From Podarcis gaigeae (Eukaryota), in assembly GCA_964106915.2 (NCBI GenBank), contig OZ066919.1: 64,000 nt of DNA. One strand, given 5' to 3'. Shown piece after piece: positions 4,310 to 54,006 of this stretch. Positions within the stretch are counted from its first letter, which is position 1, and every line of letters starts with the position of its first letter. The position numbers and the translations under genes are program-made. The notes beneath the pieces are model-generated. The model was not told the DNA's origin and did no database searches. It saw only the letters and a program-made list of their open reading frames with translations.

Positions 4310-4438
4310 TAGGGTTTCCCAAACTTGGGTCTCCAGCTATTGTTGGGCTACAACTCCCATCATCCCTACGTACCAGGACCAATTGACAGGGATGATGGGA
4401 GTTGTAGTCTAAAAACAGCTGGAGACTCAAGTTTGGGA
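4310..4438. mobile_element. palindromic hAT-type MITE running into an assembly gap
   Basis: tcccaaacttgggtctccagct...agctggagactcaagtttggga near-perfect inverted repeat. Confidence 0.7.
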
Positions 4439-19389: not shown

Positions 19390-20669
19390 CCGTATTTTTC
19401 GCCCCATAGGACGCACTTTTTCCCCTCCAAAAATGAAGGGGAAATGTGTGTGCGTCCTATGGGGCGAATGCAGGCTTTCGCTGAAGCCTGGAGAGCAAGA
19501 GGCATCGGTGCGCACCGACCCCTCTCGCTCTCCAGGCTTCAGGAAGCTGTCCGCAAGCCTTGCGCGCCCGGCAGGAGCTCCCGCCGAGCGCGCAAGGCTT
19601 GGGGCGGCAGCCTGTTGCCCGAAGCATAGGGAGCCCTCCGGAGGGCTCCCCGTGCTTCGGGCGAGTGTTTGCAAGCCTTGCGCGCCCGGCAGGAGCTCCC
19701 GCCAGGCGCGCGAGGCTTGGGGCGGCAGCCTGTTGCCCGAAGCACAGGGAGCCCTCCGGAGGGCTCCCCGTGCTTCGGGCGAGTGTCTGCAAGCCTTGCG
19801 CGCCCGGCAGGAGCTCCCGCCAGGCGCGCGAGGCTTGGGGCGGCAGCCTGTTGCCCGTAGCACGCGGAGCCCTCCGGAGGGTGCCCCGTGCTTCGGGCGA
19901 GTGTCTGCAACCCTGCGCGCCCGGCAGGAGCTCCCGCCGGCCGCGCAAGGCTTGGGGCGGCAGCCTGTTGCCCGAAGCACAGGGAGCCCTCCGGAGGGCT
20001 CCCCGTGCTTCGGGCGAGTGTCTGCAAGCCTTGCGCGCCCGGCAGGAGCTCCCGCCAGGCGCGCGAGGCTTGGGGCGGCAGCCTGTTGCCCGTAGCACGC
20101 GGAGCCCTCCGGAGGGTGCCCCGTGCTTCGGGCGAGTGTCTGCAACCCTGCGCGCCCGGCAGGAGCTCCCGCCGGCCGCGCAAGGCTTGGGGCGGCAGCC
20201 TGTTGCCCGAAGCACAGGGAGCCCTCCGGAGGGCTCCCCGTGCTTCGGGCGAGTGTCTGCAAGCCTTGCGCGCCCGGCAGGAGCTCCCGCCAGGCGCGCG
20301 AGGCTTGGGGCGGCAGCCTGTTGCCCGTAGCACGCGGAGCCCTCCGGAGGGTGCCCCGTGCTTCGGGCGAGTGTCTGCAACCCTGCGCGCCCGGCAGGAG
20401 CTCCCGCCGGCCGCGCAAGGCTTGAGGCGGCAGCCTGTTGCCCGAAGCACAGGGAGCCCTCCGGAGGGCTCCCCGTGCTTCGGGCGAGTGTCTGCAAGCC
20501 TTGCACACCCGGCAGGAGGGCTCCCCGTGCTTTGGGCGAGTGTCTGCAAGCCTTGCGCGCCCGGCAGCCGCGGCTGGAGGTGGGAAATAATTTTTTTTTA
20601 TTCATTCCCCACCCCAAAAAACGAGGTGCGTCCTATGGGCCGGTGCGTCCTATAGGACGAAAAATACGG
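19390..20669. mobile_element. Tc2/pogo-like (CCGTA-terminus) MITE containing a tandem array
   Basis: 27-bp TIRs ccgtatttttcgccccataggacgcac / gtgcgtcctataggacgaaaaatacgg (2 mismatches), TA on both sides, subterminal gtgcgtcctat repeats. Confidence 0.85.
19555..20567. repeat. GC-rich tandem satellite of 117-118-bp double-palindrome units with a 235-bp higher-order repeat
   Basis: Unit starts at 19555, 19673, 19791, 19909, 20026, 20144, 20261, 20379, 20496 (internally deleted) and 20548 (partial). Confidence 0.97.
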
Positions 20670-24468: not shown

Positions 24469-24775
24469 GACATGCCAGCCTGCTGCTCTGATAGGGGAAG
24501 AGGTCAGTTGAGAAGTAAATGATCTTGCATTGCATGGCTGGGTACAAAAGATGCACTGAAAATGAAAGAGAAGGAATGGGGCAATGGTAGACAATGGGCA
24601 GCCCAGGACCTCTCAAGGAAGATTTGTTCCTCTTCAATGAAATGCAAACTTTTCATGTAAAACAACCCATCATTTGATTTATCATTAGCAGATGGTATGG
24701 GGGCAGGGGGTGGAGAGAAACCAACACAATCATAAACTGGAGATGGCATTTTATTACTGAACATCCAGAATAAAT

Positions 24776-24938
24776 TCAAGTTACAGATAGGTAGCACCTT
24801 AAAGACCAACTAAGTTAGTTCTTGGTATGAGCTTTCGTGTGCATGAAGAAGTGTGCATGCACATGAAAGCTCATACCAAGAACTAACTTAGTTGGTCTTT
24901 AAGGTGCTACTGGAAGGAAATTTTTTTATTTTGTTTTG
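24776..24938. mobile_element. Penelope-like element pLTR fragment, inverted-duplicated
   Basis: Palindrome 24791-24910 with arms identical to the 50333 element; 13-bp direct repeat atccagaataaat at 24763-24775 and 24939-24951. Confidence 0.8.
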
Positions 24939-25641
24939 ATCCAGAATAAATGACCAGATAAAGGGCCTATTCATCTACTGGCTAAGTCACTTTCTGAATG
25001 TCTATGCACTCACATCTCCTGTGGATGACTCCAGGATTTTGGAGTCAAGATCTACCTACCTCCTGCACAGAGCCCGAAAGACACCATCACACCTGGTACT
25101 GATCTCTGGCCTTCACCCAGCTCAGGCTGTTCTTCAGCAATAGCCATTAAAGTGGCAATTCCAACCATGTCAACTCTGAAGTAAGTCCTATTGAATTTAG
25201 TGGGACATTCTCCCAGGTATGTGGGCTTAGGACTGCAGCATTAGTTAGGTGGACGACTACAAAAAGGACTGCCCTTTGGAGGCCTTTTTGGACTGGTTGT
25301 TTATGAGATGTTTTGGCTTGTTTATTAAAAATATATTTTGATGTTTACAGTGCTATTTTTTATTATTTCGTTTGGCCTCTTTTATCTTTTATTTCCCTTA
25401 GATTGTGACTCCCTTGGGAACAGAACTATAAACATATTATTATTATTTTGGTGGGGGAACTGTTGAAAGCTACTCTATGCCCACTGGAGAGAGTAGGATA
25501 TCAATCAATGTAATAAATGAATAAAGCACACAACAGCAGAAAAGGTAACTTTGGTGGTATCCCTATATCACAGGAAGATAATTGTGTGGACTGCTCAGGT
25601 GGAGCTTTTCCAGTGTCTCTTATTATTCTAGTGATGCCAGG

Positions 25642-33148: not shown

Positions 33149-33620
33149 CATAACCTCTAACATTTCTCTCATGAAAATAGGGATGTCCTGAGGCTCTTGA
33201 GAGTCCCATGGACTACAAGTAGATCAAACCTATCCATTCTGAAGGAAACCAGCCCTGAGTGCTCACTGGAAGGACAGATCATGAAGCTGAGGCTCCAGTA
33301 CTTTGGCCACCTCATGAGAAGAGAAGACTCCCTGGAAAAGACCCTGATGTTGGGAAAGATGGAGGGCACAGGGAGAAGGGGACAACAGAGGACGAGATGG
33401 CTGGACAGCTACCAGCATGAGTCTGACCAAACTGCAGGAGGCAGTGGAAGACAGGAGTGCCTGGTGTGCTCTGGTCCATGGGGTCACGAAAAGTCGGACA
33501 CGACTAAACGACTAAACAACAACAAAGGAAAGCGGGACATTCTGGGATCAAATCAGAAACTGGGATGGCTTCTGTAAATCTGGGACTGTCCCTGGAAAAT
33601 AGGGGCACTTGAAGGGTATG
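33149..33620 (+). mobile_element. CATAC-terminus TIR element (short form) with nested BovB
   Basis: cataacctctaacatt...cacttgaagggtatg; 6-bp flanks ctatag/ccatag. Confidence 0.7.
33194..33525 (+). mobile_element. BovB (RTE) LINE 3' fragment
   Basis: Encodes LRVPWTTSRSNLSILKETSPECSLEGQIMKLRLQYFGHLMRREDSLEKTLMLGK; ends gtcggacacgactaaacgactaaacaacaac. Confidence 0.92.
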
Positions 33621-35405: not shown

Positions 35406-36547
35406 GTGCTCTCTTCTAACATGAATGGTGAGACATTAGTGTGGGGTGCATAAGAGGCCATCTGGAAGACATGTATCTCAAGGTGTGCAATTTGTGTCAA
35501 GAGGGTTTTGTGTTCTTTTGGACAGTCTGCCAAAAAATGAGAATGGAATTATCATTGAGTGTCATTGAAACTAACTTAGAATGGACTTAGGCTGGTTTAT
35601 CCATGCCTTGTGCACACCATAGCTATGTCTGCGTTATCAGTCTTGCTTTCTCTATCAAGAGAGCTTTGATTAAAAAAAAAATCTAATCATGGGATGGTTG
35701 AGCGCAACCTCTTGAATCTAATCCACATATCTATCTCCATAGTTCTCCCAAGATATGGAGAATAAAGCTAACTTGGACAATGGGTTAGGACAGTATCAAA
35801 AGGAGATGAAAAATCAGTCCCCTCCCCCAGCCTTTCTGATTCACTAAACAAACAGTAAAACAGGCCGGTCTTGATTCCCTTCCTTTTCTCTTTCTTTCTT
35901 TTAAAGATTCACCTGATCCATCTGGGTGGTTAAATTAAATGATCTTTTCCACAAAGGTCAAAAGTTAAGTGTCTTGGTTTCACGAGCCTTTGCCTGTAAT
36001 GGGATGATAATCCAATTCTTTGACATGAAGAACGAATTCTCATCCTGTAGTTATTAAATATGCAGGAAGCATGCGTCTGAAGATAAATATATAGAAGTAA
36101 TGAGAAGTAGAGCTGCGATAGAACACCAAGATAATGCTGGAAACACCCGTGAAACAGAAAGGCAGAGCAAAGGGGGGGGGGAATGGCAAAGGAATACATT
36201 ACAAATGCAGATGCTCTTAATGTCGAGACTCTTGTACCCCACAATAAACCATAAGATGTGATGGTTCTAGTTTGGACGAGAGATCTCGTACCAGCCTCAT
36301 TTCCACCTCTGTTATATTCAGCTGATCACATGTTTTATGTGCAGTAATGCACTCATCAACATGAACAGAGCCAAAGAGTAAATCCTGATAAGACCAATGT
36401 GGCTAATGTACCACTCGGCCTGAACAGGGCCTGCAAACAAAGCTGCAAAAGTTACCACCTCACAAACATTTTTTTTACTAGTCCTGCTGCTCACACATGT
36501 ATAGGCTAATCATTTGTGATACACTGTGGGCCTGAAAAGCAAAAAAA

Positions 36548-36598
<51 letters not shown>

Positions 36599-36604
36599 TA
36601 AATG

Positions 36605-37469
36605 CATACCATCCAACATTTATACGATGAAAATAGGGACATCCTATTCCATAACAACCTTGCCAACAAAGGTCCATATAGTAAAAGCTATGGTTTTCCC
36701 AGTAGTGATGTATGGAAGTGAGAGCTGGACCATAAAGAAGGCTGATCGCCGAAGAATGGATGCTTTTGAATTATGGTGCTGGAGGAGACTCTTGAGAGTT
36801 CCATGGACTGCAAGAAGATCAAACCTATCCATTCTGAAGGAAATCAGCCCTGAGTGCTCACTGGAAGGACAGATCATGAAGCTGAGGCTCCAATATTTTG
36901 GCCACCTCATGAAAAGAGAAGACTCCCCGGAAAAGTCCCTGATGTTGGGAAAGATGGAGGGCACAAGGAGAAGGGGACGACAGAGGACGAGATGGTTGGA
37001 TAGTGTTCTCGAAGCTACCAGCATGAGTTTGACCAAACTGCGGGAGGCAGTGGAAGACAGAAGTGCCTGGCCTGCTCTGGTCCATGGGGTCATGAAGGGT
37101 CGGACACGACTAAACGACTAAACAACAACAACATTTCATAACAACGACAACAACAATGTTATTATTTATACCCCACCCAACAGACAGGGTTGCCCCGGCC
37201 ACTCTAGGCAGCTTCCAAGGTATATAGAAACATAACAAAACATTACACATTAAAAAAAACTTCACCATACAGGGCTGCCTTCAGTTGTATGGTTACTTAT
37301 CCTCTTGGTTTGGGGGTCACATAACTCTATACCCTCTAACATTTCTCTGAGGAAAAATGGGATTGTCCTAAGGAAAAGCAAGACATTCTGGGATCAAATC
37401 AGAAACTTGGGCAGCTTCTGTAAATATGGGACCGCCTCTGGAAAACACTTGGGACACTTGGAGAGTCTG
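36605..37469 (+). mobile_element. CATAC-terminus composite TIR element (long form) with nested BovB
   Basis: cataccatccaacatt...cacttggagagtctg; flanks taaatg/caaacg; contains an antisense L2 tail and a second left-end copy at ~37328. Confidence 0.7.
36659..37132 (+). mobile_element. BovB (RTE) LINE 3' fragment
   Basis: Encodes LPTKVHIVKAMVFPVVMYGSESWTIKKADRRRMDAFELWCWRRLLRVPWTARRSN; (CAA)n tail; 13-bp TSD attccataacaac at 36646-36658 and 37133-37145. Confidence 0.95.
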
Positions 37470-49814: not shown

Positions 49815-50315
49815 CCCCTTCATGGATCACTGCCTTGCCGTGGCGAAGGGGCTTGAATAACCCAGAGAAGCTATGAGCTATGCCGTGCAGGGCTACCCAA
49901 GACGGACAGGTCATAGTGGAGAGTTTTGACCAAACGTGATCCACCTGGAGCAGGAACCGGCAAGCCACTCCAGTATCCCTGCCAAGAAAACTCCAAGGAC
50001 AAAGACAACAGGCATATAAAAGTTATGACGCTGGAAGATGAGCCCCTCAGGTCGGAAGGCATCTAACATGCTACTGAGGAAGAGAGGAGGACAAGTACAA
50101 GTAGATTCAGAGCTGATGAAGCGGCTGGGCCAAAGCTGAAAGGACGCTCAGTTGCGGATATGCCTGGAAGCGAAAGGAAAGTCCAATGCTGTAAAGAACC
50201 TGGAATGTAAGAACCATGAACCTTGGTAAGTTGGATGTGGTCAAAAATGGTGCTGGAGGAGACTCTTGAGAGTCCCATGGACTGCAAGAAGATCAAACGT
50301 ATCCATTCTTAAGGA
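49815..50315 (+). mobile_element. BovB LINE: 5' UTR/ORF start fused to a 3' ORF segment (internal deletion)
   Basis: cactgccttgccgtggcgaaggggcttg RTE 5' end; TWNVRTMNLGKLDVVK (APE start) joined at ~50247 to WCWRRLLRVPWTARRSN. Confidence 0.85.
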
Positions 50316-50332
50316 TAACATCATTATATAGT

Positions 50333-50432
50333 CAAAACAAAAAAAATTCCTTCCAGTAGCACCTTAAAGACCAACTAAGTTAGTTCTTGGTATGAGCTTT
50401 CGTGTGCATGCACACTTCTTCAGATACACACT
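50333..50432 (-). mobile_element. Penelope-like element pLTR fragment
   Basis: Exact 12-bp TSD tcattatatagt (50321-50332, 50433-50444); contains a hammerhead motif; identical to the arms at 24791. Confidence 0.8.
50390..50427 (-). ncRNA. minimal type I hammerhead ribozyme (PLE-associated)
   Basis: Minus strand reads GUAU-CUGAAGA-A-GUGUGC-AU-GCACAC-GAAA-GC-UC-AUAC: stem I GUAU/AUAC, CUGANGA core, stem II, GAAA, palindromic AGCU stem III, UC cleavage site. Confidence 0.75.
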
Positions 50433-53400
50433 TCATTATATAGTTTATTTATTGGTGGTTAGTTGTATTCATGTTTCCTGTGGCTGTTCTATTCATATTT
50501 AAGAGATACAATATGGTCTAGTTTTCCAACCTTTAGATCTTTTATGCAAACAGAAACAGGAAAAAGTTAGCTCAATATCAAAATAAAAAAGCACAAATTA
50601 ATAAATTGATAACTATATTGCAATTCAACTCAGTCGAAAGCTTTTAGCTTTACAGAATTAACCCCTCCCCCAAATTCATTCACTTTTTATGACCAGATAT
50701 TTTGATCTCTGTGGATTTAGGTCTCAGTTATCACAACCAATAACTATATTTTTTGTTAGCTATCTTCAAATCTCAGTCAACCTCTCATATGATCCTTCTC
50801 TCCTGTATTGAAAAAACATTGCCCTAAATTAAACCATCCTTGTAAAAAAAATAGTGATGCCATTTGTACTCTGTCAATGCAGGAATTTTTTTAAATCGCT
50901 GAACTTCATTCGCATGAAAAAGGCTTTCTTATTTCAGCAGGCATCTTAAGGCAGTTTTATGATGAATTATTGCTTTTTATTATTTGTATGGCTAATTTTT
51001 AATTTTTGTATTTTTATGTCAAATACTTGGAAAGGTTAATGATTACGTGTTATACAAATGCCACAAATAAATAAATGCCAAATAAGAAATCATCTACCCA
51101 GCTCCAGATATTTCGTTAATAATAATTAGAGGGGGGGAGGGAGATAGTTATGGTGGATTAATTGGAAAATGCATAAAGTAAGTAATTGGTATCTGAAAGG
51201 GTGCACATATTTGTTCAGAATGATTGAGAAAAATGGAGCTGACTGTCGTCCCCCCCAAGTGTCCATATCTAGACTATCCTGGAACATTAAGGCCAACATC
51301 TTCATTATATTGAGTAAATTACACTTACAAATGCTTGTTGTTGACTGAATCTTGCCCAAAATGTTTCATATTATTTTTGAAAAGTCATTTCTTACCTCCT
51401 GACATTAAGCTTCTATTAAAAAAACACACAACAGCAACAGAATCTTCTAAAATTTTGAATTTCTGAATTACAAATGTCATAACCCAGGAACAGATACAAG
51501 CATGGTTAATTTCCACTGAAGTCATTATGATATATGCTTTTTGTTAAGCTCTGAGGCCCAAAAGATTTCAACAGGACTTAAAATACCCTAGTATTTTCTC
51601 TCTGAATTATGCTTATGATCACAATGACTATTTCTTCAGAAATTTCACTTAGCTTTCAAGGATGTTACTACTGTAACAGCAAATGAATGTGCCAAAATAA
51701 AAGCCAACAGATTTTTTTTAAAAAGAATGCTATGAATCAATAAGAATTTTCCATCAGTAATTACATCTGGGGTTGGGGAGGTGATGCTTGCCCCCCCTTT
51801 TAATCACATCAAAGCCACCACCAATTGTTTTTCCAAATTTTGCTGCTAAAGAGTTTATATTCATACCATCACACTTTCATAATAACTGATAATATTGATG
51901 GAGGTGGGGAAGGACACACAGGAATTTGCAAATTTGTAAGTCATGAGTCTCAGTTTCTTTGAGCCTAGTGCTGAACTCTCATTTTTCTACCTGTAATTCT
52001 CCCTCCCCCACTGCTGTTTTATTTATTTTAACTAATAGGGTTGTTTAACAAACTATTGCTTGCTGTTAAGTCAGGTTGCCTGATTTGCACTTTATGCCAA
52101 GCCAAGATTAGATGAAACTGAAAGTAAACTTGACACTTGGATCAGGATTATCCAAACCATGGTTTAGTGTTGCATGTGAACCAGCCCATTGTCCGGAGAA
52201 CCATGAAGGCCACAACATGTGCCCTGTCCCGTTTTGAACTTGCGTTTCCTGAACAACAGGGATGTGGCAGAGGAAACCACTTTTGAAATTAAAACAAATT
52301 TGCAAAGTAGTTTATGGCCTGGGAGGGGTCTGCTATAAAATGAGGGGTAAAATCTAAATCCCACTCGATGCAAGCAAAGCCTAGAAGCACCTAAAGTAAC
52401 TCTCTGGATTATGGCCAGAAAATGACATAAAAGCTTGATTGTAAAAGAACATTTTTTAAAAAGCTCTACTTTGGATTTCACCACTTTGAGGTTGCTGGAT
52501 TGCTAGCGCTGTAACATTCTACTCTTTCGAAATGTTATATATTGTGTTGTAATTAGTGTTCCCTTTGTCTGGAGGTTGGGGCACGGCCAACACCTCATCA
52601 GGTTCATCCAACCCAAGGGTGAGGAAGTTTATTTAATCTTTGGCAAACAAAGAGCCCATCTTTACCTCTTGTAAACTCTCATGCCTCCCCCCCCCATTTG
52701 TTACAAACACTTATCTGATCCAACCTGCTGCCTTGGTCAGAAAAAAAAGGATCAAAATAATAACTGAAGATTCCTTTTGCCCCGGCTGCATCTGCTATAC
52801 TACTTAAAAATCACAAATGAAGCCTCACATACTTCTCTGATCCCAGCTTGTGCCCAGGGTGATTGCAATCTCTACAGCATGCAAGCATCAAAAATGACTG
52901 AGGCTGCTCCTCATATAATAGATTACTTTCAAATGAGACTCTCTAATCCTGCTGTACATACAGAAAAGATTAAAGAAACTGACTTTTGGGGGATGGCGGT
53001 GGGTGGGTGGGTGGGCAGGAGTGAAGAAATATATATGCCTGGGTGAGGGAATTTGGAAAATTCTTCAAGAAAAAATAAAATGGAATCCATTTGTGTTGTC
53101 AAGATAATGTGCATATGTATGGTAAACTGCTTTATACAGAGTCTGGCCCTTGCTCCATCTAGATCAGTATAGTCTACTCGGACCGGCAGCAGCCCTCCAG
53201 GGCTTCTAGTAGGTGCTCGACCACTGGCCTTTCCCTTCTGGATTATCTTCCGCTAGTCACAGCAAGCCAGGCGACACGTACAGGTCTGTTTCTTCAGGCC
53301 TCGAGCCGAGTTGACAGAGAACAGCGACTTATTTGTGAGCATTGCAAAAATCAGCAAAATCGCACTTCCCGTTTCCTGAGTGTAACAATGGCATCCAACC

Positions 53401-53878: not shown

Positions 53879-54006
53879 CAGGCCTAGGCAAACTCGGCCC
53901 TCCAGATGTTTTGAGACTACAATTCCCATCATCCCTGACCACTGGTCCTGTTAGCTAGGGATGATGGGAGTTGTAGTCCCAAAACATCCGGAGGGCCGAG
54001 TTTGTG
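53879..54006. mobile_element. palindromic hAT-type MITE
   Basis: aaactcggccctccagatgttttg...caaaacatccggagggccgagttt; exact 8-bp TSD acatagta (53871-53878, 54007-54014); right TIR clipped. Confidence 0.85.

What the first reader, a model, noticed from the sequence alone, without database searches (positions are those of the whole stretch)
50333..50432. 100-bp Penelope-type retro-insertion that is essentially a hammerhead ribozyme, with a perfect 12-bp TSD
Seen: the minus strand has all hammerhead core nucleotides (CUGAAGA, GAAA, UC), a 4-bp stem I, a 6-bp stem II and a palindromic AGCU in place of stem III. The insert is bounded by an exact tcattatatagt duplication. Established: Penelope-like elements carry minimal type I hammerheads in their pLTRs, and these are thought to cleave as dimers via the palindromic stem III. 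Inference: a recent insertion, given its identity to the 24791 copy. If a host transcript runs on the minus strand, it would contain a potential self-cleavage site.
Basis: partly seen in the sequence, partly recalled or inferred. Interest (0 to 1): 0.7.

Follow-up and report, generated by a model that had tools for sequence, protein, structure and literature searches.

The report
Hammerhead-bearing stub of Penelope-like retrotransposon
This 100-base insert is one of more than ten thousand short copies left by an active Penelope-like jumping gene, a known kind of repeat carrying a minimal hammerhead motif; where such copies begin suggests they are likely copied from the capped start of the uncut RNA rather than from a ribozyme-cut piece.

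Summary
Confirmed: 50333-50432 (minus strand) is a 100-bp insert between exact 12-bp repeats with a minimal type I hammerhead motif. The parent exists: a Neptune-type Penelope-like element (PLE) with 910-952-aa RT + GIY-YIG frames, whose start codon lies 4 nt beyond the insert's 3' end. The genome holds 9,021 perfect copies of the motif and 16,209 of a 3' pLTR word, so this copy is ordinary. Corrections: stem II is 5 bp (a 14-nt palindrome), five repeat bases are also element sequence, Rfam finds no hammerhead, and no host gene was found. Added: the 5' end is not random. 34 of 100 sampled copies begin within six bases about 30 nt below a TATA-like box; 2,041 of 3,131 copies that leave the template at one base carry an extra G (cap-like); 1 of 100 begins at the ribozyme cut. 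3' ends use the two known internal start sites, one per arm in 25 of 26 inverted pairs. Likely a leader-only cDNA of uncut RNA. Cleavage and the transcription start are untested. The scan noted similar fixed ends before in other genomes. New member of a known kind; interest 0.3.

The parts
50333..50432 (-). Solo pLTR insert of a Neptune-type PLE: from the family's dominant 5' boundary to the first of its two 3' ends
   Evidence: 94/97 and 96/98 identical to the two pLTRs of parent copy L166; match 50429-50329/50328
50433..50444 (.). Target-site duplication, copy at the element's 5' side
   Evidence: exact 12-mer; family mode 12-13 bp
50321..50332 (.). Target-site duplication, copy at the element's 3' side; 50332-50328 also match the element's next five bases (microhomology)
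50430..50432 (-). Three extra 5' bases not in register with the parent; likely slippage or re-priming at the end of the template
   Evidence: parent match starts at 50429; short re-primed duplications at the same point in L007, L015, L018, L020; cause inferred
50390..50427 (-). Minimal type I hammerhead motif: stem I 4 bp, CUGAAGA, extra A, stem II 5 bp, GAAA, AGCU in place of stem III; predicted cut after C 50394
   Evidence: sequence; 9,021 exact genomic copies; compensatory pairs against an older family; activity untested
50402..50415 (.). 14-nt perfect palindrome forming stem II; predicted to pair between copies
50333..50389 (-). Rest of the pLTR, ending in a U-rich tract 4 nt before the parent's start codon
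24763..24951 (.). Second insertion of the same family: 13-bp TSD (24763-24775, 24939-24951), inverted arm 24776-24845 that ends in the tail after an internal deletion, forward arm 24844-24938 that ends at the pLTR end and has core G12 changed

Best explanation
The insert is a solo pLTR of an abundant Neptune-type Penelope-like element, likely made when the element's RT-endonuclease primed on a staggered cut in the target and copied only the 100-nt leader of the uncut, probably capped RNA, from the first internal start site to the RNA's 5' end. Shown: family membership, parent ORF, TSD, two fixed 3' ends, a sharp 5' boundary, no pile-up at the ribozyme cut. From the literature on the related Anolis element (PMC11167929): reverse transcription starts inside the RNA at two adjacent sites, both target strands are cut and extended, and uncut RNA is the main template. 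Inferred: the 5' boundary is the transcription start, the extra G comes from the cap, and the 5-nt match at the 3' junction helped priming. The hammerhead is a passenger here; alone it is predicted to be inactive, and the copy lacks the upstream TATA region, so it is likely a dead end.
For: Parent: open frames of 952, 915 and 910 aa with RVT_1 and GIY-YIG (above cut-off in 2 of 3) and a Cys-rich linker. 5' ends of the first 100 anchored copies on contig C1: 34 at +1..+6 (+1 = A of an initiator-like TTCAGT about 30 nt below TATATAG); 0.10 ends per base at +1..+5 against about 0.006 at +26..+53 and 0.002-0.003 at -16..-100; 1 of 100 at the cut-product start +38. Genome-wide: of 10,979 exact matches starting at +4, only 3,250 continue 10 nt upstream, while 9,021 continue 12 nt downstream. 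Of 3,131 with a non-template base before +4, 2,041 (65%) have G against about 29% expected; of 30 such loci the G was not explained by the neighbouring sequence in 19, explained in 5, unresolved in 6. 3' ends: 52 without and 48 with the 35-nt tail; 25 of 26 head-to-head pairs have one arm of each, none has two tails. Tandem copies join ORF-start pieces of varying length to this same 5' point. TSD found for 63 of 100 copies, 39 of them 12-13 bp. Tail-class TSDs overlap the element by 1-4 nt in 16 of 27.
Against: No RNA evidence for the start site: only assembled contigs could be laid, which cannot show RNA ends. This copy begins at +2 with three extra bases and has no extra G. The 5' peak is spread (+2: 11, +3: 5, +4: 11 of 100) with a shoulder at +6..+21. 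Non-templated G and T are also seen at R2 junctions (PMC13000458, one passage), so G need not come from a cap. The one PLE promoter mapped by experiment, in Drosophila virilis, is TATA-less and internal (PMC2377424). The sample is the first 4.9 Mb of one contig and counts both arms of inverted pairs. The mechanism tested in vitro is from the Poseidon clade, not Neptune. The empty site was not seen as a joined form.
Confidence: 0.72

Rival explanations
1. Ordinary 5' truncation of the 3' pLTR of a read-through transcript, with the RT stalling or falling off just past the hammerhead structure; no RNA 5' end is involved.
For: PLE copies are described as heavily 5'-truncated (PMC8557442, passages). 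About 30% of copies do run upstream past the boundary. End rates already rise at +6..+25.
Against: The peak lies beyond the structure, not at its 3' foot; 28.5% of copies (3,131 of 10,979) leave the template at one base, with a twofold G excess; template jumps use the same point.
Confidence: 0.13
2. The insert is what remains after recombination between the two direct pLTRs of a longer or tandem insertion, as with solo LTRs.
For: Direct tandems with the same outer ends exist (L004, L011, L053), and recombination would keep the TSD. Recombination was proposed for some solo pLTRs in rotifers (PMC3846280, passage).
Against: Short arms of the same length occur in head-to-head units that cannot arise this way; 100-bp repeats are poor substrates (own knowledge). 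It changes only the route for this copy, not the fixed 5' end.
Confidence: 0.07
3. A non-autonomous retrozyme monomer: a small RNA cut and circularised by the hammerhead and spread on its own.
For: Tandems with 185-189-nt spacing and intact cores exist; animal retrozymes are proposed to derive from pLTRs and leave monomers (10.64898/2026.07.22.740005).
Against: Unit length varies from copy to copy because the ORF piece varies; junctions are at the 5' boundary, not at the cut site; 1 of 100 ends at the cut; the forced dimer fold of tandem L035 is 24.6 kcal/mol above the minimum.
Confidence: 0.05
4. The 5' boundary is a splice acceptor (TTTCAG just upstream) and copies derive from spliced RNA with a tiny first exon.
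For: A pyrimidine run and CAG precede +3; the Drosophila Penelope intron ends at the start of helix I (PMC4209133).
Against: +3 is the weaker position (5 of 100); the +4 class with G cannot come from that acceptor; upstream bases are not shared among copies.
Confidence: 0.03

Closest known systems
Minimal type I hammerheads in pLTRs of metazoan PLEs (Cervera and de la Pena 2014, PMC4209133)
   Same: Short helix I, unpaired base between 9 and 10.1, G10.1-C11.1 pair, palindrome in place of helix III, mostly dispersed single motifs tied to truncated PLEs; reported in turtle and snakes
   Different: Stem II here is 5 bp (7-8 bp in the Schistosoma families) and its arm is a full 14-nt palindrome; copies are very homogeneous; activity of this family untested
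PAc, Poseidon element of Anolis carolinensis (Frangieh et al. 2024, PMC11167929)
   Same: Two 3' ends separated by a 30-40-nt tail, the tail coding for the start of the ORF, AT-rich targets (TSDs 64% A+T), uncut RNA as template
   Different: Neptune-type linker here; the ORF starts 65 nt after the cut site rather than at stem II, so the whole hammerhead is in the 5' leader; the paper (parts read) does not map genomic 5' ends
Neptune-clade EN+ PLEs with tail and inverted 5' copy (Arkhipova et al. 2013, PMC3846280; Craig et al. 2021, PMC8557442)
   Same: RT, Cys-rich linker, C-terminal GIY-YIG; partial tandems; inverted copies; tail at one end only; TATA and initiator-like motifs noted in rotifer pLTRs; solo pLTRs
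   Different: Those papers (passages read) call short copies 5'-truncated, explain solo pLTRs by recombination or deletion and head-to-head palindromes by self-priming on an antisense template; here the ends fit copying to an RNA 5' end from both start sites
Non-LTR retrozymes of animals (10.64898/2026.07.22.740005)
   Same: pLTR-derived, type I hammerhead, found as monomers and short tandems in reptiles
   Different: No fixed unit length and no junction at the cut site here

Membership tests
EN+ Penelope-like element, Neptune clade | Single ORF with RT and C-terminal GIY-YIG endonuclease linked to this pLTR | tested here: met
   L163-L165: RVT_1 E about 1e-11; GIY-YIG above cut-off in 2 of 3; pLTR 94-98% identical to the insert
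EN+ Penelope-like element, Neptune clade | CX2-5CxxC Zn-finger-like linker before GIY-YIG (shared by Neptune and Nematis) | tested here: met
   CNKPRCQLC seen in all three frames; definition from PMC8557442 passages
EN+ Penelope-like element, Neptune clade | RT phylogeny placing it in Neptune rather than Nematis | not tested
   no reference PLE proteins were at hand; Neptune is assumed from the linker and from its being one of the two clades found in vertebrates (10.64898/2026.07.22.740005)
EN+ Penelope-like element, Neptune clade | pLTRs from partial tandems, inverted 5' copies, optional 30-40-bp tail, TSD | tested here: met
Minimal type I hammerhead (PLE min-HHR) | Core CUGANGA, GAAA, UH in the right order with helices I and II | tested here: met
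Minimal type I hammerhead (PLE min-HHR) | Unpaired base at 9/10.1, G10.1-C11.1, palindromic 15.2-16.2 region | tested here: met
   A 50416; G-C closing pair; AGCU
Minimal type I hammerhead (PLE min-HHR) | Compensatory changes in helices with a fixed core | tested here: inconclusive
   An older family keeps the core and changes both sides of pairs in stems I and II; 3 of 9 pairs, covariation score 0.289, 15 of 500 shuffles as high, on only 5 sequences, one of them cut short by my range
Minimal type I hammerhead (PLE min-HHR) | Self-cleavage as a dimer or with protein help | not testable with these tools
   folding predicts stem I probability 0.00 in the monomer
Rfam Hammerhead_1 and related models | Score against the covariance model | tested here: not met
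   no hammerhead family listed at E<=1 or E<=10; likely because helix III is missing (inference)
Non-LTR retrozyme | Tandem units of fixed length, each with a hammerhead | tested here: not met
   this copy is single; family tandems vary in unit length
Non-LTR retrozyme | Circular RNA joined at the cleavage site | not testable with these tools
   only contigs available

The most novel reading that the evidence does not exclude
Most short PLE copies in this genome are not truncations but strong-stop-like cDNAs: the RT starts at one of two internal sites in the 5' leader and runs to the capped RNA end, where it stops, re-primes or jumps to another template (building partial tandems), while the two target strands each use a different start site. 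Thousands of genomic copies then record the transcription start at base resolution and show that the hammerhead, lying wholly within this leader, is not cut in templates; its job would be to destroy or regulate the RNA rather than to make the template.
Probability: 0.55. Interest if true: 0.5.

Novelty: new member of a known kind. Interest (0 to 1): 0.3.

Why it matters
The single insert does not matter: it is one of more than ten thousand. The family does offer a large natural record of how PLEs insert, which is still poorly understood: fixed 5' ends with a G excess, no ends at the ribozyme cut, and one start site per arm give direct predictions for the published in vitro PLE system (cap dependence, two-strand priming, template jumps). 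It also gives a simple genomic test of whether these minimal hammerheads cut host RNA: with about 9,000 perfect copies, sense-strand depletion in introns of intact against mutated cores can be counted once a gene annotation is at hand.

Tried and rejected
Rfam scan: no hammerhead hit; the miRNA hits in the window are inverted repeats. Folding: the insert folds no better than shuffles (z 0.46); the hammerhead-competent monomer is -14.2 against -18.8 kcal/mol, so folding gives no support for activity. A fixed 189-nt retrozyme unit was suspected from L004 and L031-L035 and rejected because junctions vary. The pile of 10 ends at -188 is an artefact of a small duplication in the reference copy and the pile at 14 is a subfamily difference; both were counted as copies that run upstream. 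One copy ending at +54 fell outside the bins, so at-risk numbers there are one too high. Expression: no RNA holder listed; one run guessed to be RNA was laid, but contigs show neither strand nor ends. Empty site: no joined form was listed in either laying, so absence in three relatives rests on contigs whose match stops at the insert's edge. Host gene: 14 + 150 open frames gave no credible Pfam hit (two low-complexity matches and one weak one); 150 of the frames under 120 aa were taken from 251 of at least 62 aa, and masked stretches were not examined. Papers: 'Penelope' + 'strong stop' gave 0; 'Penelope-like' + 'twin priming' gave 3, seen as listings only and not about PLE mechanism by their abstracts; 'solo pLTR' gave only PMC3846280. 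Supplements of PMC11167929 held no matching text and its Fig. S2 (coverage) could not be seen; one of the supplement files of PMC4209133 was not searchable; either may already show the 5' boundary.

Full report
Observation. The insert (50333-50432, minus strand) and its exact 12-bp flanking repeat are as described. All hammerhead core bases are present, with the predicted cut after C 50394. Stem I is 4 bp; stem II is 5 bp with a 4-nt loop and its arm is a perfect 14-nt palindrome; one unpaired A precedes it. Rfam lists no hammerhead family here. The window has 1,154 masked bases in four runs, none near the insert.

Family and parent. The window lies in a 1.51-Gb genome; 20 of 40 scored hits are identical over all 100 bases. 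Exact pattern counts: 16,209 for a 3' pLTR word, 10,979 for the 5' part of the motif, 9,021 for the whole 38-nt motif, all with 0 in reversed controls. Following the sequence 3' of the insert led to an ORF that starts 4 nt after it. A protein search gave 150 scored matches of 1,164 candidates; three fetched copies have frames of 952, 915 and 910 aa with RVT_1, a Cys-rich linker and GIY-YIG. L166 has the pLTR on both sides of the ORF region, 94/97 and 96/98 identical to the insert. The linker marks Neptune or Nematis (PMC8557442, passages); no tree was built. That the host is a squamate reptile is my recollection from its repeat types, not a call result.

3' end and TSD. Copies end either at the U-rich pLTR end or about 35 nt further, the known tail: 52 and 48 of the first 100 anchored copies. 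This insert is of the short class. A repeat of at least 9 bp was found for 63 of 100 copies, 22 of 12 bp and 17 of 13 bp (both arms of inverted units counted). Here the first five repeat bases equal the element's next five; in tail-class copies the TSD overlaps the element by 1-4 nt in 16 of 27, so short matches at priming are usual. In 25 of 26 head-to-head pairs one arm ends at each site and none has two tails; the 24763-24951 unit follows this rule. A tail at one end only is already described (PMC3846280, PMC8557442, passages), and PMC11167929 (parts 1-2 of 4 read, plus passages) shows that the tail lies between two RT start sites and that both target strands are cut and extended.

5' end. 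In the parent the insert is preceded by an initiator-like TTCAGT and, about 30 nt up, TATATAG or TATATATAAG. Numbering the initiator A as +1, this insert matches from +2 with three extra bases. Among the first 100 copies anchored on the 3' pLTR, 34 begin at +1..+6; the rate is 0.10 per base at +1..+5, about 0.006 at +26..+53 and 0.002-0.003 at -16..-100; one begins at +38, the start of the ribozyme's 3' product. An overlapping sample anchored on the motif gave 53 of 100 ending within 4 nt upstream of +4. Genome-wide only 3,250 of 10,979 continue 10 nt upstream, while 9,021 continue 12 nt downstream. Of 3,131 copies with a non-template base before +4, 2,041 have G (65% against 29% expected from window composition); in 30 examined the G was unexplained by neighbours in 19, explained in 5, unresolved in 6. 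Tandems join ORF-start pieces of varied length to this same point. I read this as the capped RNA end; that RTs can add a C opposite a cap is my own knowledge, and non-templated G and T also occur at R2 junctions (PMC13000458, one passage). Against a TATA reading, the mapped Drosophila Penelope promoter is internal and TATA-less (PMC2377424, passages).

The ribozyme. An older family (about a dozen of 96 hits) keeps the core and AGCU while changing both sides of pairs in stems I and II (five sequences, weak statistics). So the motif is kept at family level. Activity of this copy is doubtful: stem I has predicted probability 0.00, the core pairs instead with a downstream segment, and in dimers the stem II palindromes pair with each other; the forced AGCU dimer of natural tandem L035 is -48.1 against -72.7 kcal/mol. 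PMC4209133 (parts 1-2 of 4 read) found no monomer and low dimer cleavage; PMC11167929 found cleavage only with the element's protein, no need for it in insertion and no RNA reads ending at the site; the 2026 preprint (parts 1-3 of 5 read) found 1 of 9 frog dimers active.

Age and context. Contigs of a second sample of the same organism and of organism B start at 50406, inside the insert, and run into the right flank, so they carry the junction; contigs of organisms C, D and E match only from 50433-50434 and go on for about 100 other letters. The insert is thus young but not private; the empty site itself was not displayed. The left neighbour (about 49815-50315) is another high-copy repeat shared with relatives. 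No host exon was found.

Mechanism and verdict. Most likely the element's protein cut the target with a 12-nt stagger, annealed a few bases of the target to the RNA at the first internal start site, and copied 100 nt to the RNA's 5' end, slipping by a few bases there before the second strand was joined. Steps shown are the anatomy and the end statistics; the cap, the start site and priming by annealing are inferred. It is a new member of a known kind. The fixed 5' end was not found in print by my searches, which cover open-access papers only, but the scan's own unchecked notes report the same in other genomes; I had reached the reading before that look-up (note). Interest 0.3.

Noticed in passing
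window 50361-50372 (minus strand); alignment A1: A downstream box is nearly invariant between this family and the older one while its neighbours diverge, and in the predicted minimum-energy fold it pairs with stem I's 5' strand and the CUGAAGA core; it may be a conserved off-switch for the ribozyme. Only two old copies compared.
   Followed up: partly
window 50402-50415: The stem II palindrome is specific to the young family (older copies have non-palindromic loops) and many inverted units turn round at or near it (5 of 100 ends at +16, 4 at +21).
   Followed up: partly
L031-L035, L004, L011: Dimers and trimers of pLTR plus ORF start with 182-189-nt spacing and up to three intact cores; natural substrates for a dimer cleavage test and likely what a retrozyme pipeline would call retrozymes.
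   Followed up: partly
window 49815-50315; 33161-33577; 36510-37121: Fragments of another high-copy retroelement, recalled as RTE-BovB type; the insert lies 5 bases from the end of one.
   Followed up: no
window 19500-20600: GC-rich tandem array with a 117-118-bp unit and long open frames on both strands.
   Followed up: no
window 4330-4425, 53905-53988, 19394-19475: Short inverted-repeat elements that score against miRNA models below their thresholds; likely MITE-type repeats.
   Followed up: no
window 50406-50800, runs X4 against X5, X6, X8: The relative that shares the insert differs from the window at more flank positions (5 plus 1 gap in 396) than the three that seem to lack it (2 plus 2 gaps in about 367), which hints at incomplete sorting or gene flow.
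   Followed up: no
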